From a virus (lineage: Duplodnaviria > Heunggongvirae > Uroviricota > Caudoviricetes), in the IMG/VR virus record IMGVR_UViG_2740892440_000003: a stretch of 61,023 nt of DNA. One strand, written 5' to 3'. Under the pieces are notes generated by a model that was not told the origin of the DNA, ran no database searches, and was given only the letters and a program-made list of their open reading frames with translations. Below are positions 1,220-58,900 of this stretch, one piece after another. A program made the position numbers and the translations under genes. Position 1 is the stretch's first letter; every line of letters begins with the position of its first letter.

Positions 1220-2524
1220 CTATATAAACTTAGATATAATATCGTGAATCTGTTGTAGCGGGATATCTTCCATCTTATTCTTAATAAGGGAGCGGTTAGA
1301 TGCTGTCAGTGAAGGCCATTTTGTTTTCCAGGCTAGATATGCTCGCCATGAGTAGCCTGTTTCGTAAGGTTTATTCATATAAGTCATTGAGTGTTCAACC
1401 GCATGCATGTATTTTTTCTCAAAGTTGGTTCCTTTTACTTCAAATAAACCACCGAAATAAATAAGCCATTTTGCCAGGTGTTCATACTGCTCCCATGCGC
1501 CAGACTCTTTAGTAAGTTCTATTTTTTTATCTATTATATCACAAAAAACATTTAATACCTTTTCATCATTCCAGCTATATCCAGATGATGAAATGGAGGA
1601 AATGATATGATAAAAAGAATCCTCTAGCTTCAAGAACTCTATTTTATACTCTCTTCCGTTTTTTATTACCGATTTGATTGAGTGCCTCAATTTGTCTTTT
1701 ATTTTTTTTGCTTCTGGAATTTTATCGTTAAGTTTTCTAAAGAAATCAGACACCTCTGTTTTATCTATAACCCTAATCCCAAAGCAGGAAAAATAGTAAT
1801 CTTTAATAGGTTGCAATAGTTCCCCTCGGGAAATAAGGAAAATATTGGAGGACATTACGTTGTCCCGTGAAAATACCTTATATTCATTTATAATAGCCTT
1901 GAGGTTCGCGTCACTTAGAGAATAGCCAAGGATAACAATAGTGTTTTCATGTAGAACTGTGCTTAGTTTATTAGAAAAGTAAGAATTACCATTTATAAAT
2001 CTGAAATAATCCTCGCTAGTAACAACCATGTCTGATGGGGAGTCTATAGAACCGTGAACATGGTAGACTTTAACCTCACAATTATATTTTGGAATTGGCA
2101 GGCCGGGGGTGATTGTACACGTTCGGTTCTCTCCAGCCAGTTTTTCTGCTAACTTGTCATAATTTGTCGTAATTACTTTGAATGTGTTTTCTTTGAAAAA
2201 GTCTTGAATATATTCAATTGATGGATCAAGTTCGATTGAGGCTATGATTTTCTCAATCTCCTGGTAAATATTTTTCCCCGAAAGTATAAATTTTAGTGCA
2301 ATAACCTGAGCAGCCTCTTCAAGGCTAAGGTCTTTTGCTTTCCCAGCAGGAAATAATTCCTCTTTGAGTGAGTCACCATCCTTCAATAAACCGCACAGTT
2401 GCTCCAATAAAGATTGCCAACTTGGGGCTTTATCATCAGAAACAGCCTTTGAAAATCCAGTGCCTGTAAGAAAGCACAGCCTATGTGTAGCCGCTGCATA
2501 GGCAATTTCTATATACTCGCTCAT
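1220..2524 (-). CDS. SIR2-family (sirtuin-like) protein with a C-terminal helical domain; candidate defence effector
   Basis: 434 aa. N-terminal half carries the SIR2 hallmarks FLTGTGFS (glycine-rich NAD loop), VITTNYD and HVHGS (catalytic His). C-terminal ~180 aa has no recognised motif. Gene is AT-rich relative to its neighbours; GGAG RBS 7 nt upstream. Confidence 0.75.
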   Translation of the reverse strand: MSEYIEIAYAAATHRLCFLTGTGFSKAVSDDKAPSWQSLLEQLCGLLKDGDSLKEELFPAGKAKDLSLEEAAQVIALKFILSGKNIYQEIEKIIASIELDPSIEYIQDFFKENTFKVITTNYDKLAEKLAGENRTCTITPGLPIPKYNCEVKVYHVHGSIDSPSDMVVTSEDYFRFINGNSYFSNKLSTVLHENTIVILGYSLSDANLKAIINEYKVFSRDNVMSSNIFLISRGELLQPIKDYYFSCFGIRVIDKTEVSDFFRKLNDKIPEAKKIKDKLRHSIKSVIKNGREYKIEFLKLEDSFYHIISSISSSGYSWNDEKVLNVFCDIIDKKIELTKESGAWEQYEHLAKWLIYFGGLFEVKGTNFEKKYMHAVEHSMTYMNKPYETGYSWRAYLAWKTKWPSLTASNRSLIKNKMEDIPLQQIHDIISKFI

Positions 2525-2580
2525 TACTTACTCCATTTACTTATAGTTCTACGGAGAAGTATACCCTAATGCATTGACGT

Positions 2581-3222
2581 TTATAGATAATTTCCGTTTC
2601 CTGTTAATACTCCCTTAGGCACTTGTTTTTGCGCCAGTGTTTGAGTGCCGCGAATTATGTTAATCAGAGGACTTAGTAACGATGATTCCTGGCGGGCATC
2701 AACTTCCTCTGCCATTGCCCTGATGTAGTCTGCGCTTGCAACGTTGTTGTATTCCGTTGCGAAGCAGCATAACAACGTCAGAACATGCTCTGTCGTTATT
2801 TCACTCCAGTTGATGTTGAAAAACTCATCGCCTTTTTTATCGTGTTCGGAATCGAAGATGCTTTGGTGGAGGATGTATTTGCCGGATTCCTTGCGCGGTA
2901 ACTTGATCGCTTTCTGGCGTTCCAACTCCTTGTAAATCTGCATTGCTTCAATTAGTACCGGCCTGCCGTTCATGAAGGGATCACGCAACCTTACACGCTG
3001 GCCAACTCGACCGGTAATAAAGCTGTTTTCCTCTTCCACCAGCACGATAAAACCCTTTTCCTCTTTTTCTCGCAATTCGCGCAGCAGCTGGAGTTCCATA
3101 TCGCGGCGGCGTTCAGGGTAGCTGGTCCGCTCAGCCATTATCAGCTCATTGTTGATCCATGCAGCAGTCATTGACGCCGGTTTGCCGACGCTCATTGAAA
3201 CAACGCATATTTTCTTATCCAT
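2581..3222 (-). CDS. hypothetical protein immediately upstream of and co-oriented with the SIR2 gene (operon partner, or an equivalent of P1 mat)
   Basis: ATG at 3222 (the track ORF begins at an upstream GTG, 3249); 213 aa; 56-bp gap to the SIR2 start. Contains a deviant P-loop-like VSMSVGKP and an acidic hhhhEEE stretch (FIVLVEEEN). No confident family assignment. Confidence 0.5.
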   Translation of the reverse strand: MDKKICVVSMSVGKPASMTAAWINNELIMAERTSYPERRRDMELQLLRELREKEEKGFIVLVEEENSFITGRVGQRVRLRDPFMNGRPVLIEAMQIYKELERQKAIKLPRKESGKYILHQSIFDSEHDKKGDEFFNINWSEITTEHVLTLLCCFATEYNNVASADYIRAMAEEVDARQESSLLSPLINIIRGTQTLAQKQVPKGVLTGNGNYL

Positions 3223-3503
3223 AGCGCCCCTACAAAAAAGAAAAGCCACCAGCGGCGGCTTAGCAATACAACTGAAGGTAGCGCCCGGTACTCAGACTGT
3301 GCCGTCCATGGAATATTTGAAAAGGGATCCATCCGTACCGGGCTTGATGTGATTTTGGCAGAAGTAATTTGTCAGATGTCAATTTTTTTATCTGTAAAAA
3401 TGCTATAAACCAATATTTTTATTATTTTTATATGGTTGTAGTAGTAGAGTCTGGGCTATTCCTGCGTCCGGTCTTGATGACCACAAATCACGGAGATTGA
3501 TTA

Positions 3504-3953
3504 ATGAAAAATCGTAGTTTCAACATTATCGCTTCTATTGCTATGGCTCTAATGTTAACTGGGTGTAAACAGTCAGAGATTGATAAACTCTCACTTATCG
3601 GTGAAGACAAGAGTTATCTTGAAGAACAGGACGAAGCCACTTTTGAAAAACGGACTCCAGACATAGAACTTTTTGCATTATACGATAAATCGTCACCTGA
3701 CGCTCAGGAACCACATACCACAGGAATGTTGATTAATGGCAAGGTTGAGTTGAGCATGACAACAAAAGTTGGCAAATATACCTTTATGCAATTAGATGAA
3801 ATGCTTACAAAAGAGTATGGGAAACCTGTTGCGACGAAGGACCATATCTTTGATAAGGCTGCAATCTCTGGTTTGGACTGCATTGAAACTAAAACCTGTG
3901 GTGCTGGTAAGTATTATGAAGTATTCCGAGGAAGGATCGGTTTGTATTATTGA
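3504..3953 (+). CDS. lipoprotein (149 aa)
   Basis: Signal peptide ending in lipobox LTGC; divergent from the SIR2 operon across an AT-rich promoter region. Confidence 0.55.
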   Translation: MKNRSFNIIASIAMALMLTGCKQSEIDKLSLIGEDKSYLEEQDEATFEKRTPDIELFALYDKSSPDAQEPHTTGMLINGKVELSMTTKVGKYTFMQLDEMLTKEYGKPVATKDHIFDKAAISGLDCIETKTCGAGKYYEVFRGRIGLYY

Positions 3954-4103
3954 TTAATGGAGCTGGTTATTTGTACGAAAAAGAAGGGGTTGCATTGCTT
4001 ACTATCACGGAAAAACAATTAAAAGTTGCTCGTCTGGAAGAGGACAAAAAACATTAACAAACAGGGGCATACGCGCCCCAATATTTTAAAAATAATAAAT
4101 ATA

Positions 4104-4664
4104 TTAGTGCATGATATTTGCCATCTCATAGGCGTCAGCCAGCAACCCCATCTCTGACTTGTTCAGCAGGGTGAATTCTTTCTTGCCTCCAACCACGCCA
4201 TCGGCATGAACAGGGACCAGCCAGGGGTATTTTTCTCTTACTTCAGCCGGTGCTGCATGCTGGTGGTGCCATCTACAAAGGGGCAATTGCTTTTTGTGAC
4301 AACCAGGCGTGGTACGACCGGAGATATGGTGCAGGGACACCTCTTCAGATATTACTCCATGCATATAGCAGGCAATGCAGGGGAGAGCGCCAAGAGCATT
4401 GGCTATGCGCCGTTCCTCTGCCGTCGGTGTTCGCCCCTTCAAGCCACGAGATTTTATTTTTACCGCACTTTTCCGCTTTTTACTGGCTGGTGGGCGCTCT
4501 TTCTGTTTAGCGATACGGCGTTCGATAGGATCCCGCATTTTCTGATATTGCGATTCTCGCCAGGCGGGGTCAGCCAACTTTTCCCGTTGCCGAGCGATCG
4601 CTCGTTCTCTGGCTGCCTTCTGCCACTCGCGGCGCTGTTCAAGTTTTTGTTCGATTGTTTTCAT
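4104..4664 (-). CDS. ref: Ref, recombination enhancement function (HNH-type endonuclease)
   Basis: Translation from the internal Met (MKTIEQKLEQRREWQKAARERAIARQ...) matches P1 Ref as I recall it; about 186 aa; Cys/His-rich HNH region (CIACYMHG...HHISGR...CHKKQ). Confidence 0.85.
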   Translation of the reverse strand: MKTIEQKLEQRREWQKAARERAIARQREKLADPAWRESQYQKMRDPIERRIAKQKERPPASKKRKSAVKIKSRGLKGRTPTAEERRIANALGALPCIACYMHGVISEEVSLHHISGRTTPGCHKKQLPLCRWHHQHAAPAEVREKYPWLVPVHADGVVGGKKEFTLLNKSEMGLLADAYEMANIMH

Positions 4665-9675: not shown

Positions 9676-9993
9676 ATTGGCAGCCTCCTTAGACGTTGGT
9701 ATGTAACCACCGCAGAAGAGACCAATCTTGCTGGCGGTGGACTGTACGGAGTTGGCCTTACTGGCGTCCAAGGTAACCAGCCTACCCGAAGGTAGCCCCA
9801 TACAGCCCACCATTGTAGAGGTGTGCGTGTACGCCGATACAAAAAAAGACGCGAGCGGCGTCTGTATCGCCTTAGACTTAAGCGGGAGGCCAATCCCGGC
9901 ACCCGTTTTAATGAGGTGCCTGATAAGCATAAACCGAAAATGCCTCAAGGCGCAAGAGGTCAGGTTCAATGTAACATCGGTAGTTAAAAAACA

Positions 9994-36681: not shown

Positions 36682-36756
36682 CGGTAAGGGTACTTCGTAG
36701 GGATTCGAACCCTCTGCCAAGCACGGCGATCTCCGACGTCGCAAAATACCCTTACC
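36682..36756 (-). ncRNA. tRNA-like element (acceptor-like 10-bp stem enclosing a perfect T-arm), not a canonical tRNA
   Basis: Minus strand GGTAAGGGTA...AGGGTTCGAATCCCT...TACCCTTACC, 75 nt, directly upstream of tRNA-Thr; no anticodon arm could be folded. Confidence 0.3.
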
Positions 36757-36764
36757 TGTTGTGT

Positions 36765-36840
36765 TGGTGCCGGTTAACGGACTCGAACCGCTGACATCCT
36801 GCTTACAAGGCAGACGCTCTACCAACTGAGCTAAACCGGC
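36765..36840 (-). tRNA. trnT: tRNA-Thr (anticodon UGU)
   Basis: GCCGGTTTAGCTCAGTTGGTAGAGCGTCTGCCTTGTAAGCAGGATGTCAGCGGTTCGAGTCCGTTAACCGGCACCA; canonical cloverleaf with encoded CCA. Confidence 0.85.
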
Positions 36841-36842
36841 AT

Positions 36843-36918
36843 TGGCGATGGTGGATGGATTTGAACCATCGACCCGTTGATTAACAGTCAACCGCTCTAA
36901 TCGCTGAGCTACACCATC
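36843..36918 (-). tRNA. trnA: tRNA-Asn (anticodon GUU)
   Basis: GATGGTGTAGCTCAGCGATTAGAGCGGTTGACTGTTAATCAACGGGTCGATGGTTCAAATCCATCCACCATCGCCA; perfect 7-bp acceptor stem, GUU anticodon. Confidence 0.85.
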
Positions 36919-37583: not shown

Positions 37584-37600
37584 AAATTTATTAGAGCAAT
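37584..37600 (-). promoter_or_regulatory. C1 operator, perfect 17/17 match
   Basis: aaatttattagagcaat is the exact reverse complement of ATTGCTCTAATAAATTT; overlaps the dmt stop codon, upstream of the tRNA cluster. Confidence 0.8.
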
Positions 37601-40600
37601 ATACCTAAAACGTCATGAGCAACACCTCGAGTGTCCCCCTTACAAGACACAGAACGTCTGGCAAAAAGAGGTTCCACTCTGAAGCCATTGTCATGATAAA
37701 GCTCTCTGATGTTTGGCGCGCCACTGTTAGTAATGAGAACCTTTGCACCTCGGCGATGAGCATCCGTCAACAGAGACACCAGGCGTTTTTGCTCTTCAAA
37801 CTTAAAGTCATGACCGGAATAGTTCGTGAATCCCTCTGTATTTGGAAGCGGTTCATATGGCGGATCGCAAAAAATGACATCTCCTTCTCCGGCAGCTTCA
37901 ATCACCGCAGCAAAATCACCACATACAAACTCAGAACGACCTTCCGCACCGAGGAAGGCTTCCATCTCCTGTAATGGGAAATACGGAGTTTTATACTTCC
38001 CATAACCGACATTGAACTCACCGGCCTGGTTGTAACGCGTCAATCCGTTAAAACAATGTCGGTTCAGGAACAAAAACGCCGCTGCGCGATGTAAATCATC
38101 ATAGACTTGTTTGTTAAACGCATTCCGTACTGCCAGGTATCCTTCCTGTGTGTTGTAGTCCTGGAAAAACTGATGCGCCAGTGTGATAAGTGAATGCGCC
38201 TCGCGTTGCAGAGTCTTGTAAAAGTTAATCAGGTCAGCATTCACATCATTTAGCAGATTTTCCTGGTATCCGGCATTCATGAAGACAGCTCCGCCACCGA
38301 CGAAAGGTTCAATCAGGCGCTTCCCTTCTGGCAAATAGCGAAAGATTTGTTCCAGAACACCAAATTTTCCACCAGCCCATTTGAATATGGACCGTTCGAA
38401 TTCTGCCGCTGGTTTAACTTTTCGCTCTTTTGTTTCACGCCCTTCATTCTGCCGACATGCAGCCTTGGTTATCCGCTCGCCAATCCAGCGCATTACTGGT
38501 ATCGCCATACTATTGCCGATCGCTTTGTAACGCGGTCCGCCAGCTGCAAGCATCGCGGCCTCTTCTTCGCTTAAATCTGGATAGTGATTGTGCAGATATG
38601 CCAGTTCATCTGAATTAACTTTTTTACGCTTTTCCGTAGGGATCAACGTATGCCCATCAGGAAAACCTTGAAGTCTCTCACATTCGACAGGGGTAAGACG
38701 GCGGACAGCTACTTCTTCGTTTCTTACTTCATAGCAAACAGCAGTTGGATTTTGAGCCATTAGAGATGGTGAAGTATTCTTAGTTGCTGCATGTTGTGTA
38801 CCACTCATACGCTCAGGAAAAGCCAATGTAACAAGATGCTCATGGCTTTCTTGCTCACGCGCCCGCAATGTACCATGCCCTTCTGACCAAAAACCTGCTC
38901 CAGTGCTGCTAAAAACGGCAAGGTCAGTGGCATCTTTAAAGTCTCTTGCCTTTACTGTCGATGCGGTTTCATCGTCAATATATTCCCCAAATGCCGCCAT
39001 CCTGAAACCGTTTACGGCTTTCGTCGATTTCATACCGGGAGACATGCCAGCGTGTAGGCATGGATTTAGGCTTTCGCCACTGATTGCAGCGCCATTTGCA
39101 GTAATGGCGGAAGCGATTTCCTTCTTTTTCGGCTCGGCGCAATATTCCGGCGCACGCCTTCGAACTCAAAAAGTACCGTTGCGGGATCGAGGTCTGTTCG
39201 AGCACTTGCGACAACAAACACGCGTCGGCGTCGTTGTGCCACTCCGAAGTATTGGGCATCAAGGATTCTCCAGGCCACCTTTCTCTGCGGTCCATAAATA
39301 CAACCACACTGCGGCCACTTTGGAACATGGCAACCGGTTTTGACATCCCACCGCCAGAACGCGTTACTTTTTCCTGATTCAGGTCGATCACCTGGTTCGA
39401 ATAGCGCATCTTCTCCAGCCAATCCGGCAAGGAAACATCCGAAGGCGTTATCTGCCGATGACAAGACTCCTGGGACATTTTCCCAGACGATAACGGCTGG
39501 TTTGAGAAATGACTCAGCCCGTTTGTCGTCAATTGCATTTGCAAGCTCCACATACTTTAAAGTTAGCGCGCCACGCTCATCATCAAGCCCACCACGTAAT
39601 CCAGCGATACTGAATGCCTGACAGTTATGGACCACCGCACCATTGAGGATATAGGAATGATCACCTTCGACTTCTATGTTGTATACAGTATCTAGGCCTA
39701 CCGATTTAAACTCTTTGACTGTTCGTAAAAGCATTCCATGAGCCAATCTTGATTTACGTGACAATTTCTGCGGGCAGATTGTTACCTGATAATAATTCCG
39801 TTGATTTACCACGCGATCCTCAATCACTTTTTTGGGCTCAACTTCAATAAAGCTGACCGAAGAAACATAACCACAAGTCTGTGACAACTCCGCAACGCCC
39901 CAAGCAAGCGCAGGACTAACACTATTAATTCTAAATCCCGCTTTACCACTTGGTGTCCCATCAGTATCAAGATAGCCTTGTAAAAACACATGACGCAATG
40001 GATGCGACATCACCCATGCAGGGATACGCTTAGCATGGCTTAACTCGCCAAAATGTTCATTAAGCCAATTGGCATAACACGTATCATTCAAGGTTACTTT
40101 GATGCTCCCTCGGATTTCGCTTGCCACGGAAAATATGTTTTCTGGTATGCGGCAATGAAACTTTCTCAATTTCTGGCAATTTATGCCAAAAACAACCGCC
40201 TTCTTAGATTTACCTCTCCATCTCCTAATATATCCATCGCCAACATAAGCGCCCGCAAGATACATAGCCTGTTCTTCAGACAAGAACCGAGAACAAATAT
40301 CTGGAGATGCAATATTGAAATTAGTTAGAGCACACCATTGATATCCCGGCATATCACATGCTGCTCGCCATTCCGGTTCAGACAACAACTCTCTCTTAAA
40401 ATATGTGCCATTTTTCCGGGTGTTTTGGGCTTTCCACCGAACCGCCAGGAAGGGATGGTCATTGGTTGTTCTTATACCTAAAGGCTGCCCAACGGCATTA
40501 AGTAACCCCGTATTAGCTATTTTTGAACCAACTCTTTTTACTTGTTGTAACCGCCCGAGATGACTGACTACGTAATCGCCAGGGCAAACATCTTCTATTG

Positions 40601-40877
40601 GTTTATAACCATTTTTACAAAGAACCATATGCCCCGCGGTAAAACATGGTGTCCCTCCCACCAGCACATCAGGGGCTTCAATTTCTCCAGCCTGGACTTT
40701 TTGGGCGAGTTTTGTCATGTCGCCAAGGTTGGCGACATGGGGCCAGTGGTACGCAAGAACGGCAGATGGAAAAGGCTCGATTTCAGCAAACCACGCCGGA
40801 CGCATACCCAACGGTTCCCAGGCAATACTCGCGGCTTCAATTCCACTGCAAACAGATCCATAGCACAGCTCTTTCAC
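37591..40877 (-). CDS. dmt: Dmt, bifunctional DNA methyltransferase (N-terminal C5-cytosine MTase, C-terminal Dam-like N6-adenine MTase), interrupted by an intein and by a 1-nt frame break at the A5 run 39125-39129
   Basis: C5-MTase motifs I ([11 protein letters not shown]), IV (GGTPC...QAFSIAG), VI (ENVPG), VIII (QRRRRVFVV), IX ([19 protein letters not shown]) and X ([12 protein letters not shown]), followed by Dam motifs (FKWAGGK ... DPPY). Track ORFs 39066-40877 and 37591-39045 join if the A-run has 6 A (...[17 protein letters not shown]...). Confidence 0.85.
39624..40646 (-). mobile_element. intein (341 aa) with a LAGLIDADG homing-endonuclease domain, inserted at the catalytic Cys of motif IV of Dmt
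   Basis: The N-extein ends GGTP; the intein begins CFTAGHMVL and ends [10 protein letters not shown]; the C-extein resumes CQAFSIAG, restoring [12 protein letters not shown]. Two LAGLIDADG blocks ([25 protein letters not shown]). Confidence 0.8.
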
Positions 40878-43946: not shown

Positions 43947-44339
43947 ATGTCTGATAAAGTAACAGTAAAGCAAACTATCAACAAAGCGACTTCAATCTAC
44001 AAAATTGAGCAAATCACTGTTGGCAAGCCAGGATCAGAACAATACCGTCGTGCTTTCGAGCTTGCCGATCAGCTTGGTTTAAAACACCCGGATTGCATTG
44101 AGCATGTATTTCCGACCTATGCTGATGAGCAATGTACTCATGTTCTTATCGAAGAGGATTTTTTCAGCACTGAAGAACGAGAAGGCGTTGATCGCTGCAT
44201 TGGTGTGATTTGTTCTTCGGTAAGTGATGAGTTATTCCCTAATGTGCCTGAATATGGTGGTATTGGATACCAATTCCTGTACGAGGGCGATGAGCTTAAA
44301 TGCTATGAACATGGTCTTCTCATCGAAAGCGTAGAATAA
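43947..44339 (+). CDS. hypothetical protein (130 aa)
   Basis: ORF immediately upstream of oriR. Confidence 0.45.
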   Translation: MSDKVTVKQTINKATSIYKIEQITVGKPGSEQYRRAFELADQLGLKHPDCIEHVFPTYADEQCTHVLIEEDFFSTEEREGVDRCIGVICSSVSDELFPNVPEYGGIGYQFLYEGDELKCYEHGLLIESVE

Positions 44340-44380
44340 TACGACTCCCTTCCAACCGGCTACGTTGGCCGGTTTTTCAC

Positions 44381-44458
44381 TTATCCACATTATCCACTGG
44401 ATAGATCCAATAATCAGGTCCATACAGATCCCAATTAGATCCATATAGATCCCTGATC
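44381..44458. other. oriR: oriR origin core: tandem DnaA boxes plus five GATC sites
   Basis: TTATCCACA and TTATCCACT in tandem (44381-44398), then five GATC sites in repeated (t/c)agatcc units (44404-44458); a further DnaA box TATCCACA at 44632-44639. Confidence 0.8.
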
Positions 44459-44497
44459 GTTGCAGGCCGCGCCACGTCTGGCTTAGAAGTGCATCGC

Positions 44498-44602
44498 GAT
44501 GTGTGCTGGAGGGAAAACGATGTGTGCTGGAGGGATAAAAATGTGTGCTGACGGGTTGCTAATGTGTGCTGGCGGGATATAGGATGTGTGCTGACGGGAA
44601 AG
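44498..44602 (+). repeat. incC: incC iterons (5 x 19 bp, 21-bp period)
   Basis: gatgtgtgctggagggaaa and four variants, directly upstream of repA. Confidence 0.9.
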
Positions 44603-44657
44603 CCTGGGTAGTTATCACCACTTATAAAAACTATCCACACAATTCGGAAAAAGTAAT

Positions 44658-45518
44658 ATGAATCAATCATTTATCTCCGATATTCTTTACGCAGACATTG
44701 AAAGTAAGGCAAAAGAACTAACAGTTAATTCAAACAACACTGTCCAGCCTGTAGCGTTGATGCGCTTGGGGGTATTCGTTCCGAAGCCATCAAAGAGCAA
44801 AGGAGAAAGTAAAGAGATTGATGCCACCAAAGCGTTTTCCCAGCTGGAGATAGCTAAAGCCGAGGGTTACGATGATATTAAAATCACCGGTCCTCGACTC
44901 GATATGGATACTGATTTCAAAACGTGGATCGGTGTCATCTACGCGTTCAGCAAATACGGCTTGTCCTCAAACACCATCCAGTTATCGTTTCAGGAATTCG
45001 CTAAAGCCTGTGGTTTCCCCTCAAAACGTCTGGATGCGAAACTGCGTTTAACCATTCATGAATCACTTGGACGCTTGCGTAACAAGGGTATCGCTTTTAA
45101 GCGCGGAAAAGATGCTAAAGGCGGCTATCAGACTGGTCTGCTGAAGGTCGGGCGTTTTGATGCTGACCTTGATCTGATAGAGCTGGAGGCTGATTCGAAG
45201 CTGTGGGAGTTGTTCCAGCTTGATTATCGCGTTCTGTTACAACACCACGCCTTGCGTGCCCTTCCCAAGAAAGAAGCTGCACAAGCCATTTACACTTTCA
45301 TCGAAAGCCTTCCGCAGAACCCGTTGCCGCTATCGTTCGCGCGAATCCGTGAGCGCCTGGCTTTGCAGTCAGCTGTTGGCGAGCAAAACCGTATCATTAA
45401 GAAAGCGATAGAACAGCTTAAAACAATCGGCTATCTCGACTGTTCAATTGAGAAGAAAGGCCGGGAAAGTTTTGTAATCGTCCATTCTCGCAATCCAAAG
45501 CTGAAACTCCCCGAATAA
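44658..45518 (+). CDS. repA: RepA plasmid replication initiator
   Basis: 286 aa, flanked by iteron arrays on both sides (P1 R-replicon architecture). Confidence 0.9.
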   Translation: MNQSFISDILYADIESKAKELTVNSNNTVQPVALMRLGVFVPKPSKSKGESKEIDATKAFSQLEIAKAEGYDDIKITGPRLDMDTDFKTWIGVIYAFSKYGLSSNTIQLSFQEFAKACGFPSKRLDAKLRLTIHESLGRLRNKGIAFKRGKDAKGGYQTGLLKVGRFDADLDLIELEADSKLWELFQLDYRVLLQHHALRALPKKEAAQAIYTFIESLPQNPLPLSFARIRERLALQSAVGEQNRIIKKAIEQLKTIGYLDCSIEKKGRESFVIVHSRNPKLKLPE

Positions 45519-45519
45519 G

Positions 45520-45830
45520 TGTGTGCTGGAGGGCAGCTGCATTCAAAAAATGTGTGCTGCCGGGAAGGCTTGTCCAGTTTCCCGTTTTTGATGTGCGCTG
45601 GAGGGTTGCGCCACGCAGTTTGCCCAGACATTCCCTCCAGCACACATCTAACCATCCAAGTTTCCCTCCAGCGCACATCTAATCTTCTATCTTTCCCTCC
45701 AGCACACATATTTGATACCAGCGATCCCTCCACAGCACATAATTCAATGCGACTTCCCTCTATCGCACATTCTGGTCCTGCATCATCCCTCCAGCACACA
45801 TCTAATAGCCTCATCGCCATTTCTTTACGT
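45520..45830. repeat. incA: incA iterons (about nine copies, both orientations)
   Basis: Repeated tgtgtgctggaggg / ccctccagcacaca units downstream of repA. Confidence 0.85.
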
Positions 45831-45912
45831 GCAATAATTGACGCACGAATCAAAAAAAAGTTGCACGTAGCAGAATCAAACGTACAATTCACTCATACGA
45901 AATGATAAGGAG

Positions 45913-47124
45913 ATGATGATGAAACGCGATTACGGCGGTGTCGGCACCATAGCTCTTCGTGCAAGCGCATTACTTAAGGCCATGAGTCAGGATATTGAAG
46001 ATCAGCGCAAAGAGTTCAATCAGACCGAGTATTATCAGACGTTCACTCGTAACGCTGTGGCAAAGTTGCCGAAGCTGAGCCGCCGCATTGTGGAGCAGGC
46101 CATCAAAGAGATGGAAGATGATGGGTACCAGTTCAACAAGAAACAGGTCGGTAACGTTGAACAGTACGCGCTGACCATCCAGAACGTCATTGATATCTAT
46201 GCCCACCGTAAGATCCCCAAATATCGCGACATTCACAAATCGCCTTACGTTATTTTTGTCGTAAACCTGAAGGGTGGCGTATCCAAAACGGTTTCCACAG
46301 TCACGTTGGCGCACGCTCTGCGTGTGCATCAGGATTTACTGCGTCACGATCTGCGCATTCTGGTAATTGACCTTGACCCTCAGGCATCCAGCACAATGTT
46401 CCTCGACCATACTCACAGTATTGGTTCCATCCTGGAAACCGCCGCGCAGGCGATGCTGAACGACCTGGACGCGGAGACGCTACGCAAAGAGGTGATTCGT
46501 CCGACCATCGTTCCTGGCGTAGACGTGATTCCAGCCTCTATCGACGATGGCTTTGTTGCCAGCCAATGGAAAGAGCTGGTTGAAGAGCATCTTCCCGGAC
46601 AAAATCAGTACGAAATCCTTCGACGCAATATCATTGATCGTGTTGCGGATGATTATGACTTTATCTTTATTGATACCGGTCCACACCTGGATCCGTTCCT
46701 GCTCAACGGTCTGGCGGCCAGCGATTTGCTGCTTACCCCTACCCCACCAGCCCAGGTTGACTTCCACTCAACACTGAAATATCTCACCCGTCTGCCAGAA
46801 ATGCTGGAGCAACTGGAGGAGGAAGGCGTAGAACCGCGTTTAAGCGCCAGCATTGGTTTTATGTCGAAGATGACCGGCAAGCGCGATCACGAGACATCAC
46901 ACAGCCTTGCGCGTGAGGTTTACGCCAGCAACATTCTGGACTCTTCTCTGCCTCGTCTGGATGGATTTGAGCGATGCGGCGAGTCTTTCGACACCGTAAT
47001 CAGTGCCAACCCGCAATCGTATCCAGGCAGTGCAGAGGCGCTGAAGAAGGCACGAACCGAGGCCGAGCGTTTCACTAAGGCTGTGTTTGATCGAATTGAG
47101 TTTGTTAGGGGTGAGGCGGCATGA
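45913..47124 (+). CDS. parA: ParA partition ATPase (type Ia)
   Basis: Deviant Walker A NLKGGVSKT; long N-terminal regulatory domain; substantial similarity to P1 ParA but clearly diverged from it. Confidence 0.9.
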   Translation: MMMKRDYGGVGTIALRASALLKAMSQDIEDQRKEFNQTEYYQTFTRNAVAKLPKLSRRIVEQAIKEMEDDGYQFNKKQVGNVEQYALTIQNVIDIYAHRKIPKYRDIHKSPYVIFVVNLKGGVSKTVSTVTLAHALRVHQDLLRHDLRILVIDLDPQASSTMFLDHTHSIGSILETAAQAMLNDLDAETLRKEVIRPTIVPGVDVIPASIDDGFVASQWKELVEEHLPGQNQYEILRRNIIDRVADDYDFIFIDTGPHLDPFLLNGLAASDLLLTPTPPAQVDFHSTLKYLTRLPEMLEQLEEEGVEPRLSASIGFMSKMTGKRDHETSHSLAREVYASNILDSSLPRLDGFERCGESFDTVISANPQSYPGSAEALKKARTEAERFTKAVFDRIEFVRGEAA

Positions 47125-48086
47125 AAAAAATAGTTTCCCGTGGACGAGTGCTGGGCAAGAATAGCTCCGAGTTTGCTCGCATGCTTGAAGGCAGTGAAGG
47201 CACCAAAACCTTTACCCTAAAATCTGGCCGCCAGGCTAAATTTTTGCTTACCGTTGTGCTGAGTGGTGAGATTGAGTCGCGCACGTTCGTTGACCCGGCA
47301 GTTAACGGCCGCGATCAGTCTCTGCTCACCCCTGAGTCGGTAAGCGATATTTCCCGCACCATTAAATTGCAACAGTTCTTCCCGGCTATCGGTCGTATGG
47401 TTGGGGAGCGCATTGAGGTATTGGACGGATCACGTCGCCGCGCTGCGTGTATCTTCAATGAAACGAAATTTGAGATTCTGGTGACGAAAGATGAGATCAG
47501 CCTGGCGGATGCACGCCAGCTGGCCATTGATATCCAGACAGCCCGCGAACACACCCTGCGCGAACTGGGTAAACGCTTCGAGGTTATGTATGGTAAGGGC
47601 ATGACCAAAGAAGAGATCGCCCGCGCTGAGAACATTTCAAAGGCTAAAGTTACGCGCGCGTTCCAGGCGGCAGCGGTGCCGGATGAGATGATTGCTGTCT
47701 TCCCTGTTGCCAGCGATCTCGCCCTGCCAGATTACCAGTTACTGCTCCAGATCTCCGAGGATGCCAACGCTAAAAGCGTGCCTATTGAAGAGCTGGTTGA
47801 TACGGTGCGCGAACGAATTGCAGAGACTGAGGGCGCGAAAGAGGATAAAGCGAAGATACTGGCTATCTTCAAAGCGGAAAGCAAAAGCCTGAAGCCCGCG
47901 CCGGTTAAATCTGTGGTGGTTGAGAAGCTGCGAGACTTCTCTGACCGTCGCCAATATGCCCGAAAGAAGTCCGATCCGAAAAAACGGGTTGTCGCCTACG
48001 AGTTCTCCAGACTCCCGTCTGAAGTGCAAACTGAAATTGACGAAGCAATAAAAAAAATCATTGGGAAAATGTCTGCTGGGGAATAA
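47121..48086 (+). CDS. parB: ParB partition protein
   Basis: 321 aa immediately downstream of parA with overlapping stop/start. Confidence 0.85.
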   Translation: MKKIVSRGRVLGKNSSEFARMLEGSEGTKTFTLKSGRQAKFLLTVVLSGEIESRTFVDPAVNGRDQSLLTPESVSDISRTIKLQQFFPAIGRMVGERIEVLDGSRRRAACIFNETKFEILVTKDEISLADARQLAIDIQTAREHTLRELGKRFEVMYGKGMTKEEIARAENISKAKVTRAFQAAAVPDEMIAVFPVASDLALPDYQLLLQISEDANAKSVPIEELVDTVRERIAETEGAKEDKAKILAIFKAESKSLKPAPVKSVVVEKLRDFSDRRQYARKKSDPKKRVVAYEFSRLPSEVQTEIDEAIKKIIGKMSAGE

Positions 48087-48099
48087 TCCCGCTGGTGGG

Positions 48100-48300
48100 A
48101 GGCGGCTTTAGCCCCCTCCCCTGTCTAAAATGTCCCGCGCCTATTTCATGTATAAATATATGATATATATAGATATTCATGAAAAATTTCAGACTGAAAT
48201 TCCCACGGTTTCACGCCTATTTTACTTGCCCCCCTCCCCCGCACAAAAAATTTAAAAAATTACTTTTAGCGAGAAAGTCAACAAGTGACTTTCAATAAAA
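48100..48300. other. parS: parS centromere (approximate)
   Basis: AT-rich IHF-like core flanked by heptamer motifs TGAAAT/ATTTCA and an inverted unit TGAAATTCCCACGGTTTCAC; the hexamer between the heptamers is TCCCAC rather than the P1 TCGCCA. Confidence 0.5.
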
Positions 48301-58649: not shown

Positions 58650-58900
58650 ACGGCCTCACAATCAGGTTTAACAACCTGCTACCCGCTGCTAAACAGGTGG
58701 CAGGACGTGACGGGGTTAGCAGACTGGCGATTGTGATACCAGCAGGCCGAAGCCTCCCCATCACGCCCCACCATAATTTGGGCGTAACGCGGTTTTACGG
58801 ACACAAAAATACCGCAATATCAGATATCTGCGGCTGTCCGCACAATCATTCAGGCTGCTAAACCCGGTCGCAGAATTTGCTACGACGGCGGAACTATAAG
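58650..58900 (-). ncRNA. c4: c4 antisense RNA / leader region (boundaries approximate)
   Basis: Structured GC-rich leader between the Op51-type operator and icd, where P1 encodes c4; exact ends not determined. Confidence 0.3.

What the first reader, a model, noticed from the sequence alone, without database searches (positions are those of the whole stretch)
39624..40646. LAGLIDADG intein inserted at the catalytic PCQ cysteine of the Dmt C5-methyltransferase domain
The C5-MTase motif IV is split: the N-extein ends GGTP, then a 341-aa insert begins CFTAGHMVL and ends VVHN, and the C-extein resumes CQAFSIAG, so that excision recreates the canonical [12 protein letters not shown]. The insert carries two LAGLIDADG blocks ([25 protein letters not shown]) and a Hint-type C-terminus ([13 protein letters not shown] followed by Cys +1). 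Without the intein, and with the A-run frame break corrected, the gene codes for about 754 aa, the size I recall for P1 Dmt. The insertion sits at the active-site nucleophile, so methyltransferase activity would depend on splicing. I am not aware of an intein described in a P1-family dmt.
Basis: partly seen in the sequence, partly recalled or inferred. Interest (0 to 1): 0.8.

Follow-up and report, generated by a model that had tools for sequence, protein, structure and literature searches.

The report
Intein in P1-type dmt methyltransferase
The DNA methyltransferase gene dmt of this P1-like phage-plasmid is interrupted, exactly at the codon of its catalytic cysteine, by a self-splicing protein element (an intein) that carries its own homing endonuclease; the element is real, common in E. 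coli plasmids, unannotated, and one of a large family that always sits at this site.

Summary
On the minus strand, window 39624-40646 encodes a 341-aa in-frame insert (CFTAGH...VVHN). It lies between GGTP and CQAFSIAG of motif IV in the C5-methyltransferase domain of dmt. Reference P1 Dmt (754 aa) lacks exactly these 1023 nt.

The insert matches intein and LAGLIDADG profiles. Its AlphaFold model (pLDDT 93.7) matches PI-SceI, VMA inteins and PI-PfuI. All splicing residues and both endonuclease aspartates are present.

It is not unique to this window. The same intein (at least 99% identical) is in phages RCS47 and vB_EcoM-Ro157c2YLVW and in one P1 isolate. It is also in 133 PLSDB plasmids and 152 of 5426 complete E. 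coli genomes, about 31% of P1-type dmt alleles. It is always annotated only as a Dam-family methyltransferase.

The intein is far less diverged (0.9%) than its flanks (about 6%) and is lower in GC, which fits spread by homing.

It belongs to a large family. Of 140 full-length relatives, 125 sit at the same Pro|Cys junction of C5 methyltransferases.

The downstream A-run frame break is probably a sequencing error.

Verdict: a new, undescribed member of a known kind. I found no paper describing it.

The parts
37591..40877 (-). dmt gene. It encodes an N-terminal C5-cytosine methyltransferase domain (interrupted by the intein) fused to a C-terminal Dam-type N6-adenine methyltransferase domain. In this window it is broken into two ORFs by a 1-nt deletion.
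   Evidence: ORFs 40877..39066 (603 aa) and 39045..37591 (484 aa). Pfam DNA_methylase and MethyltransfD12 hits. 97.5% nt identity over the full length to the intact 1095-aa dmt of RCS47 and Ro157c2YLVW.
40647..40877 (-). N-extein: 77 codons containing motif I ([11 protein letters not shown]) and ending in GGTP, the first half of motif IV. Pro is the -1 residue.
   Evidence: Translation and alignment to P1 Dmt residues 1-77.
39624..40646 (-). The intein: 341 aa, Cys1 to Asn341, absent from reference P1.
   Evidence: Exact 1023-nt indel against P1. Profile hits. AlphaFold pLDDT 93.7 and pTM 0.90. Foldseek top hits PI-SceI, TliVMA, PhoVMA, PI-PfuI and PI-PkoII.
40317..40646 (-). N-terminal lobe of the Hint (splicing) domain, intein residues 1-110. 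Contains block A (Cys1, CFTAGHMVL, 40620-40646) and block B (T61-x-x-H64, TTNDHPF, 40449-40469).
   Evidence: Pfam Hint_2 covers residues 1-49. Beta-strand architecture in the model. Across 141 family members Cys1 is 141/141, T61 137/141 and H64 141/141. The domain limits are approximate, taken from the model.
39837..40292 (-). LAGLIDADG homing-endonuclease domain, roughly intein residues 119-270. Motif 1 is [12 protein letters not shown] (40227-40262, Asp137). Motif 2 is [13 protein letters not shown] (39948-39986, Asp229). Conserved Lys206 lies at 40014-40037.
   Evidence: Pfam LAGLIDADG_3 E=6e-9. Helices 124-137 and 218-229 in the model. Foldseek hits to I-DmoI and I-SceI. D137 is 132/141 (plus 2 Glu), D229 139/141 and K206 139/141.
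39624..39836 (-). C-terminal lobe of the Hint domain, intein residues 271-341. Block F is [14 protein letters not shown] (39645-39686) and block G is NGAVVHN (39624-39644), ending in His340-Asn341.
   Evidence: NCBIfam TIGR01443 intein_Cterm above cut-off. PDB sequence hit to blocks F/G of the Spl DnaX mini-intein. N341 is 141/141, H340 127/141 and D329 131/141.
39621..39623 (-). Codon TGT for the +1 cysteine. It is both the C-extein nucleophile for splicing and the catalytic cysteine of motif IV (PCQ).
   Evidence: The spliced sequence aligns PCQAFS with PCQAFS of M.HhaI. Assigning the M.HhaI cysteine as the catalytic nucleophile rests on established knowledge, not on a test here. +1 Cys is present in 136/140 relatives.
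39125..39129 (-). A5 run (T5 on the + strand) where relatives have A6. This is the frame break that separates the 603-aa and 484-aa ORFs.
   Evidence: Alignment with RCS47, Ro157c2YLVW and P1. The nearest plasmid has 3288 nt against 3287 nt here. It is one of several isolated homopolymer indels in the window.
38638..38769 (-). C5-methyltransferase motifs IX-X ([15 protein letters not shown] ... GNSMAIPV), in the second ORF.
   Evidence: Pfam DNA_methylase profile positions 259-297.
37681..38379 (-). Dam-type (D12 class) N6-adenine methyltransferase domain, including the DPPY motif.
   Evidence: Pfam MethyltransfD12 E=2.9e-57.

Best explanation
Window 39624-40646(-) is a full-length class-1 intein: a Hint splicing domain with a LAGLIDADG homing endonuclease nested inside it. 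It is inserted between Pro77 and the catalytic Cys78 of motif IV in the C5-cytosine methyltransferase domain of the bifunctional P1-type Dmt.

Inferred mechanism:
1. The gene is translated as a 1095-aa precursor.
2. Cys1 performs an N-S acyl shift at the Pro-Cys bond.
3. The +1 Cys attacks the thioester.
4. Asn341 cyclises, assisted by His340.
5. An S-N shift rebuilds [12 protein letters not shown]. This yields a 754-aa Dmt with an intact active site plus a free 341-aa endonuclease.
6. That endonuclease is inferred to cut intein-less dmt alleles at the GGNACNCCT|TGTCAGGC junction when two P1-like genomes meet in one cell. Repair from the intein-bearing copy then spreads the element (homing).

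Until splicing occurs the C5 domain cannot work, because its nucleophile is separated from the rest of motif IV by 341 residues. The C-terminal Dam domain may not depend on splicing.

What is shown: the precise in-frame insertion, the intein and endonuclease sequence motifs and predicted fold, the presence/absence polymorphism, and the horizontal-spread signature.

What is inferred: splicing, endonuclease activity and target, and the dependence of C5 activity on splicing.

In this particular window a 1-nt deletion downstream breaks dmt. It is most likely a sequencing error, and in any case it lies after the intein and would not prevent intein expression.
For: - Exact 1023-nt in-frame indel against P1, with both motif IV halves flanking it.
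- Profile hits: LAGLIDADG_3 6e-9, Hint_2 2e-6, and TIGR01443 above its cut-off. There are also partial hits to the intein segments of intein-containing RNR, GyrA, RFC, DnaB and RtcB models and to an intein-bearing phage RNR PHROG.
- AlphaFold pLDDT 93.7; Foldseek E=1e-16 to 1e-9 against PI-SceI, TliVMA, PhoVMA, PI-PfuI and PI-PkoII.
- All canonical residues are present and conserved across 141 relatives: C1 141/141, T61 137/141, H64 141/141, H340 127/141, N341 141/141, D137 132/141, D229 139/141, K206 139/141.
- The spliced sequence aligns with motif IV of M.HhaI.
- Intact 1095-aa genes occur in RCS47, Ro157c2YLVW and the nearest plasmid. Most of the 152 E. coli genomes and 133 plasmids carrying the intein show a single CDS under the match.
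- Spread signature. Intein divergence between the window and RCS47 is 9/1023 (0.9%), against 17/300 (5.7%) in the upstream flank. Intein GC is 42.8% against 49% for the exteins. The flank haplotype of intein-bearing alleles also exists intein-free (L005, L006), differing only at the last base before the site.
- Of 140 full-length relatives, 125 occupy the same P|C junction. In 9 of 9 sampled, the C5-MTase profile resumes at position 71.
Against: - No experiment shows splicing or cleavage.
- The -1 residue is Pro. One paper's abstract states that natural and engineered inteins had previously failed with Pro at -1 (PMC6486613). Against this, 128 of 140 relatives also have Pro at -1 and keep all splicing residues.
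- Pfam Intein_splicing scores below its gathering threshold (22 against 35.8 bits). Sequence similarity to solved inteins is weak.
- Among four near-identical copies, variation is 7 synonymous to 7 non-synonymous codons. This is only weak evidence of purifying selection at this short time scale.
- The biological role of the Dmt C5 domain is itself unproven. The P1 record says 'perhaps at C5 cytosine', so selection for splicing could be weak.
- In this window the host gene is frameshifted.
Confidence: 0.9

Rival explanations
1. The insert is an intein by descent but no longer splices, or splices poorly. It then acts as a permanent disruption of a dispensable C5 domain, while the C-terminal Dam domain still works within the 1095-aa protein.
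For: - Pro at -1 is reported as a non-permissive context (PMC6486613).
- The C5 function of Dmt is uncertain (P1 annotation). The documented role of dmt is Dam methylation for packaging (PMC12707154).
- The 7:7 synonymous to non-synonymous ratio among close copies is only weak evidence of constraint.
Against: - Every splicing residue is intact here and nearly invariant in 141 relatives.
- The same -1 Pro context is retained in 128/140 relatives, whose host methyltransferases keep their downstream motifs (ENV within 90 aa in 115/140). Such long-term coexistence would not be expected without splicing.
- The C5 motifs of the intein-bearing alleles are intact.
Confidence: 0.1
2. In this particular element dmt is a true pseudogene. 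The A5 run is a real mutation, so only a truncated C5 fragment plus the intein would be made, and no functional methyltransferase is restored whatever the intein does.
For: - The window has A5 where all four compared alleles and the nearest plasmid have A6.
- A few database copies of intein-bearing dmt are also split or unannotated.
Against: The window carries several other isolated 1-2 nt homopolymer indels relative to its nearest relative. These give net frameshifts in at least four conserved genes, including an hsdR homologue. That pattern is typical of homopolymer sequencing error rather than independent inactivation of many genes.
Confidence: 0.25
3. The insert is not an intein. It is either a free-standing or intron-borne homing endonuclease gene that happens to be in frame, or an inserted domain tolerated as a surface loop (as proposed for the ShiLan insertion in an actinophage methylase).
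For: Such in-frame endonuclease insertions in phage methylases exist (PMC11855218).
Against: - A complete Hint fold surrounds the endonuclease, with Cys1, TxxH, HN and +1 Cys.
- The endonuclease reads in the host frame.
- The position splits the catalytic PC dipeptide, which cannot be a tolerated loop.
- No alternative-frame ORF is needed to explain the insert.
Confidence: 0.01
4. The intein has been co-opted as a post-translational switch. Splicing would be conditional (on redox state, temperature or DNA damage), so that C5 methylation by Dmt is turned on only in certain phases of the phage-plasmid life cycle.
For: - The insertion at the active-site nucleophile makes activity strictly splicing-dependent (inference).
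- The intein has cysteines near Cys1 (C10, C21).
- The intein is kept in about 31% of alleles.
Against: - C10 is not conserved in relatives, where it is mostly Thr.
- The presence/absence polymorphism, low GC and low divergence are fully explained by selfish homing.
- No data bear on conditionality.
Confidence: 0.07

Closest known systems
PI-SceI (Sce VMA1 intein) and the archaeal VMA, PI-PfuI and PI-PkoII inteins: full-length class-1 inteins with a nested LAGLIDADG homing endonuclease
   Same: - Same two-part architecture and predicted fold (Foldseek E=1e-16 to 1e-9, TM about 0.55-0.63).
- Cys1, block B TxxH, terminal His-Asn, +1 Cys, and two LAGLIDADG motifs with catalytic Asp.
- Inserted in a conserved active-site motif of the host protein.
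   Different: - Only 11-17% sequence identity.
- Smaller, at 341 aa against 360-540 aa.
- Different host protein (a DNA C5-methyltransferase) and Pro at -1.
- No biochemical data.
Mycobacteriophage DNA methylase inteins (DNMT-1 and DNMT-2; Kelley et al. 2016, PMC5050341)
   Same: They are inteins inside orphan phage DNA methyltransferases, with patchy presence/absence among related phages.
   Different: Their hosts are N6/N4 (N6_N4_Mtase) enzymes of actinophages, not C5 enzymes. The insertion site, the host family and the bacterial phylum all differ.
Uncharacterised database relatives at the same site. Examples are the Mannheimia haemolytica 'Hint domain-containing protein / DOD-type homing endonuclease domain-containing protein' (P0011), metagenomic phage C5 methyltransferases (P0007-P0012, P0055-P0201), and actinobacterial ones (P0018, P0021).
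   Same: - Same insertion point (..P|C...HN|C[Q/T]xxS) in 125 of 140 full-length relatives.
- 28-57% identity across the whole intein, with the same conserved residues.
- P0055 is also a C5+Dam fusion like Dmt.
   Different: They are diverged at least 43% from the P1-type copy and sit in other host organisms and elements. None is characterised, and they carry only automatic names.
Intein-less P1 Dmt (AF234172, 754 aa)
   Same: Same gene, same flanks and the same bifunctional C5+Dam architecture, about 97% nt identity outside the insert.
   Different: It lacks the 1023 nt. It has CCT instead of CCA for Pro(-1), different synonymous codons at -2 and -3, and Trp instead of Gly at -4.

Membership tests
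Intein (class 1, canonical four-step splicing) | In-frame insertion in a host protein whose intein-less homologues are contiguous across the site, so that removing the insert restores the conserved host sequence | tested here: met
   P1 and six other intein-less alleles read [12 protein letters not shown] uninterrupted. The insert is exactly 1023 nt. The spliced sequence aligns to motif IV of M.HhaI.
Intein (class 1, canonical four-step splicing) | N-terminal nucleophile (Cys/Ser/Thr at position 1) and block B TxxH | tested here: met
   Cys1 and T61-N-D-H64 are present. They are conserved 141/141, 137/141 and 141/141 among relatives.
Intein (class 1, canonical four-step splicing) | C-terminal His-Asn followed by a Cys/Ser/Thr +1 extein residue, plus block F | tested here: met
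   ...VVHN|C is present. TIGR01443 scores 25.9 bits against a cut-off of 15.6. N341 is 141/141, H340 127/141, +1 Cys 136/140 and D329 131/141.
Intein (class 1, canonical four-step splicing) | Hint fold | tested here: met
   This rests on a predicted structure only: pLDDT 93.7 and pTM 0.90. Best matches are solved inteins (PI-SceI, TliVMA, PhoVMA, PI-PfuI, PI-PkoII, Prp8 and DnaB mini-inteins). Pfam Hint_2 is just above its gathering score (28.5 against 28.4), while Intein_splicing is below its own (22 against 35.8).
Intein (class 1, canonical four-step splicing) | Autocatalytic protein splicing that yields ligated exteins and a free intein | not testable with these tools
   This needs expression plus western blot or mass spectrometry. 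One caveat is Pro at -1 (PMC6486613).
LAGLIDADG (DOD) homing endonuclease, single-chain two-motif type | Two LAGLIDADG helices, each ending in a catalytic acidic residue, within an alpha-beta-beta-alpha-beta-beta-alpha pseudo-dimer fold | tested here: met
   Motifs lie at residues 129-140 (Asp137) and 221-233 (Asp229). Pfam LAGLIDADG_3 E=6e-9. The model has helices at 124-137 and 218-229, and Foldseek hits I-DmoI and I-SceI. D137 is 132/141 and D229 139/141.
LAGLIDADG (DOD) homing endonuclease, single-chain two-motif type | Site-specific cleavage of the intein-less allele, and homing | not testable with these tools
   Only indirect evidence is available. The intein is about 6 times less diverged than its upstream flank. 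It has lower GC. It is present in about 31% of alleles. The same flank haplotype occurs with and without the intein.
C5 DNA-cytosine methyltransferase (host domain, Pfam PF00145) | Conserved motifs I, IV (PCQ), VI (ENV), VIII (QRR), IX and X in order | tested here: met
   Pfam DNA_methylase E=2e-22 for the first ORF and 3.9e-6 for the second. The motifs are visible in translation and align to M.HhaI and M.HaeIII. Motif IV is complete only after in-silico splicing.
P1 Dmt (bifunctional C5 + Dam methyltransferase of Punavirus) | Orthology: same locus (between hrdC/rdgC and the tRNA/ban region) and high identity over the full length | tested here: met
   97% nt identity to P1 dmt outside the insert, with rdgC/hrdC upstream and tRNA-Thr and tRNA-Asn downstream, as in P1.

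The most novel reading that the evidence does not exclude
The P1-type dmt intein may be the E. coli-resident, currently homing representative of a large and so far undescribed intein family. At least 125 clusters at 50% identity sit at the same site. The family always splits the Pro-Cys dipeptide at the catalytic centre of C5 DNA methyltransferases and therefore splices natively with proline at -1. Inteins have been reported to fail in that context. If so, this would be a natural source of Pro(-1)-tolerant inteins, and a tractable P1/E. coli system for watching intein homing among phage-plasmids.
Probability: 0.45. Interest if true: 0.6.

Novelty: new member of a known kind. Interest (0 to 1): 0.5.

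Why it matters
1. Annotation. A widespread gene of P1-like phage-plasmids is labelled only as a Dam-family methyltransferase, although a third of it is a selfish element. It is found in about 3% of complete E. coli genomes, and also in Salmonella, Shigella, E. fergusonii and E. albertii. The 1095-aa and 754-aa size classes are currently clustered together without explanation.

2. Biology. E. coli and its classic phage P1 are the most tractable hosts imaginable for studying a natural intein. Intein-free and intein-bearing alleles coexist at roughly 2:1, and the flank polymorphism suggests ongoing homing. Invasion, co-conversion and resistance of target sites could therefore be measured directly.

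3. Function. Because the +1 nucleophile is the catalytic cysteine of the methyltransferase, any C5 methylation by these Dmt alleles is contingent on splicing. This is relevant for anyone studying P1 anti-restriction or the methylomes of strains carrying these plasmids.

4. Tools. The family-wide Pro at -1 suggests inteins that tolerate a junction considered non-permissive.

None of this changes what inteins are understood to be. It adds a well-placed new example and a new insertion-site family.

Tried and rejected
- Literature. Follow-up reading found no description of an intein in Dmt or in any C5 methyltransferase. Only N6/N4 methylase inteins of mycobacteriophages turned up. Absence from this library is not proof of absence.
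- Sequence search of the PDB with the intein gave only marginal hits (1.5e-3 to blocks F/G of the Spl DnaX mini-intein). The fold comparison was needed.
- Pfam Intein_splicing stayed below its gathering score, so I did not rely on it.
- I considered a programmed frameshift at the A-run and rejected it. Relatives have an uninterrupted frame with A6, and the window shows similar indels in other genes.
- I considered that the 76-nt partial intein hits (H57, H58) might be a second intein variant. H57 is an IS1 truncation, and H58 simply runs across the record start.
- My first codon-variation count used a wrong frame offset caused by alignment ambiguity at the repeated TGT. It was redone.
- I looked for papers stating the -1 proline problem. 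Two were irrelevant and one supplied the statement.
- dN/dS on exteins as a test of post-invasion selection was not attempted. Extein divergence predates the very recent intein spread and would be uninformative.
Full report
**1. Observation**

The feature lies on the minus strand.
- ORF 40877..39066(-) (603 aa) reads [17 protein letters not shown]...[17 protein letters not shown] ... [12 protein letters not shown] ... [13 protein letters not shown] ... [25 protein letters not shown]...VWENVPG...QRRRRVFVV.
- A second ORF, 39045..37591(-) (484 aa), carries C5-methyltransferase motifs IX-X and a complete Dam-type domain (Pfam).
- Window 39624-40646(-) translates to 341 residues without a stop codon, from Cys1 to Asn341.
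- The window is a P1-like phage-plasmid. It is collinear with plasmid NZ_CP143628.1 and with P1, RCS47 and related phages. The gene is dmt.
- Aligned with reference P1 dmt (AF234172, 754 aa), the window, RCS47, vB_EcoM-Ro157c2YLVW and a P1 isolate (OP279344) carry exactly 1023 extra nucleotides. P1 reads ...[15 protein letters not shown]... across the site.

**2. What it is**

Three independent lines identify the insert as a full-length intein with a nested LAGLIDADG endonuclease.

(a) Profile matches.
- Pfam LAGLIDADG_3 (6e-9) and Hint_2 (2e-6).
- NCBIfam intein_Cterm above its curated cut-off.
- Partial hits to the intein segments of intein-containing RNR, GyrA, RFC, DnaB and RtcB models, and to an intein-bearing phage RNR PHROG.

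(b) Structure.
- An AlphaFold model built on 15 homologues has mean pLDDT 93.7 and pTM 0.90.
- Its best PDB matches are PI-SceI, the TliVMA and PhoVMA inteins, PI-PfuI and PI-PkoII (E=1e-16 to 1e-9).
- These are followed by the free LAGLIDADG enzymes I-DmoI and I-SceI, and by mini-inteins.

(c) Residues.
- Present in the window: Cys1, block B T61-x-x-H64, block F D329, His340-Asn341, +1 Cys, the two endonuclease aspartates D137 and D229, and K206.
- All are almost invariant in 141 family members.

The in-silico spliced protein aligns [12 protein letters not shown] with GFPCQAFSISG of M.HhaI. The +1 cysteine is therefore the motif IV cysteine. From established knowledge of M.HhaI, this is the catalytic nucleophile.

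**3. Distribution**

- The intein DNA is at least 99% identical in 133 PLSDB plasmids, from E. coli, E. fergusonii, E. albertii, Salmonella and Shigella.
- It occurs in 152 of 5426 complete E. coli genomes, with 148 places on plasmids and 5 on chromosomes.
- A query made of the joined flanks finds 494 genomes with a P1-type dmt junction. In 337 of them it is uninterrupted. About 31% of alleles therefore carry the intein.
- In PLSDB, 127 of 498 dmt-bearing plasmids carry it.
- Every source names the protein 'Dam family site-specific DNA-(adenine-N6)-methyltransferase' or 'DNA methyltransferase'. The 754-aa and 1095-aa forms sit in one 90%-identity cluster.

**4. Evidence for mobility**

- Between the window and RCS47, the intein differs at 9 of 1023 positions (0.9%). 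The 300 nt upstream differ at 17 (5.7%) and the N-extein at 15 of 230.
- The intein has 42.8% GC (GC3 36.7%), against 49% for the exteins and 54.5% for the N-extein.
- Intein-free alleles come in two junction haplotypes. One (L005, L006) is identical to the flanks of intein-bearing alleles, except that the last base before the site is T instead of A. All 4 intein-bearing alleles have CCA and all 7 intein-free alleles have CCT.
- This is the pattern expected from recent homing into diverged alleles with short co-conversion. It does not prove endonuclease activity.

**5. A large family at the same site**

- A full HMMER scan of 1.84 billion cluster representatives gave 193 hits at E<=1e-30.
- Of the 140 top hits aligned over the full length, 125 have the junction ...P|C...N|C[Q/T]xxS. 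Pro is at -1 in 128, Cys at +1 in 136, and the intein ends in HN in 126.
- Nine sampled members all contain Pfam DNA_methylase, with the profile resuming at position 71 right after the intein. One of them (P0055, 57% identical intein) is again a C5+Dam fusion.
- One homologue sits in a phage-like contig next to N6/N4 methylases, a Gp157-family gene and a dCMP deaminase. Others are in Mannheimia haemolytica, Rodentibacter, Pseudonocardia and Parvibaculum.
- The dmt intein is thus one member of a broad 'C5-methyltransferase motif IV' intein family.
- The family-wide Pro at -1 is notable. One paper's abstract says that natural and engineered inteins had previously failed with Pro at -1 (PMC6486613). 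Conservation of all splicing residues together with intact host motifs argues that this family does splice in that context. This is inference.

**6. The frame break**

- The window has A5 at 39125-39129 where RCS47, Ro157c2YLVW, P1 and the nearest plasmid have A6.
- Compared with the nearest plasmid, the window has other isolated 1-2 nt homopolymer indels. They cause net frameshifts in at least four conserved genes.
- I therefore regard the break as a probable sequencing artefact (about 75%).

**7. Mechanism (inferred)**

- The precursor would be 1095 aa. Canonical class-1 splicing would proceed through Cys1, +1 Cys and Asn341.
- The products would be a 754-aa Dmt with a rebuilt PCQ active site and a free 341-aa LAGLIDADG enzyme. 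That enzyme would target intein-less dmt when two P1-like genomes share a cell.
- C5 activity should be strictly splicing-dependent. Dam activity, the documented function of dmt in packaging (PMC12707154), may not be.

**8. Comparison and novelty**

- In architecture and predicted fold it is closest to PI-SceI and the archaeal VMA and Pol inteins.
- In biology it is closest to the mycobacteriophage N6/N4 methylase inteins (PMC5050341).
- In sequence it is closest to uncharacterised database proteins at the same site.
- It passes every computational membership criterion for a class-1 intein and for a two-motif LAGLIDADG endonuclease. The activity criteria are untestable here.
- No paper in the searchable library describes an intein in Dmt or in any C5 methyltransferase. 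The library omits much subscription literature and all intein databases.
- I classify it as a new, undescribed and unannotated member of a known kind. Interest is moderate, raised somewhat by three things: its prevalence in E. coli, the experimentally convenient host, and the Pro(-1) family.

Noticed in passing
window ~612, 3226, 4903, 20838, 21549, 22154, 29532, 37100, 39125-39129: Relative to the nearest plasmid (NZ_CP143628.1) there are isolated, uncompensated 1-2 nt indels at short homopolymers. They give net frameshifts in at least four conserved genes, including an hsdR homologue and dmt. This pattern suggests homopolymer sequencing or assembly error.
   Followed up: partly
L003 (OP279344.1, 'P1 del res del mod'), dmt 1592-4633: This P1 isolate carries the intein. 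It also has a different, shorter variable segment between C5 motifs VIII and IX, giving a 1013-aa Dmt. The C5 target-recognition region may therefore have been swapped, implying a different specificity.
   Followed up: no
L004 (AF234172 P1 reference), codon -4 relative to the splice site: Reference P1 has Trp (TGG) where all ten other alleles examined have Gly in the GGTPCQ motif (VLVWGTPC). This could affect C5 activity, or endonuclease recognition of the lab P1 allele.
   Followed up: no
window 40647-40649 (Pro -1 codon), compared with L001-L010: All 4 intein-bearing alleles use CCA for Pro(-1) and all 7 intein-free alleles use CCT. This is a possible co-conversion marker, or a determinant of the target site. 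The sample is small.
   Followed up: partly
window 9730-9817, 9842-9919, 58693-58778, 58847-58899: There are two C4 antisense RNA loci. One lies next to an isrK-like sRNA and the other next to the c4 a1/b1 target element, so the window holds two immunity-type antisense modules.
   Followed up: no
window 34886-34961, 36765-36840, 36843-36918: Three tRNA genes lie on the minus strand: anticodons CAT (called Met), TGT (Thr) and GTT (Asn). The Thr-Asn pair sits just downstream of dmt, as in P1.
   Followed up: no
window 33353-34510 (-): The DnaB-like (ban) ORF is only 385 aa, and the DnaB N-terminal domain match starts at profile position 27. The N-terminus may be cut off by another frame break.
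   Followed up: no
window 44310-48183 and 32038-36893: Two segments do not align to the nearest plasmid at megablast level. The first holds a Rep3-type initiator, ParA and ParB (44658-48086). The second holds a glycosyltransferase-like ORF, ban, an SPFH/Band 7 protein and the CAT tRNA. The replication/partition module thus differs from that of the closest dmt relative.
   Followed up: partly
L012 (NZ_CP070875.1, E. fergusonii plasmid pTB91P2) 3501-3576: Only the first 76 nt of the intein remain, followed by an IS1 element. This is an example of dmt and the intein being destroyed by IS insertion.
   Followed up: yes
P0011, P0042, P0044 (Mannheimia haemolytica), P0024 (Rodentibacter): Pasteurellaceae carry a 47%-identical intein at the same site. 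In P0011 the C-extein diverges right after CQ (VVHNCQSDKGG...), and gene calls are fragmented. These may be decaying copies, seen on 578 contigs.
   Followed up: no
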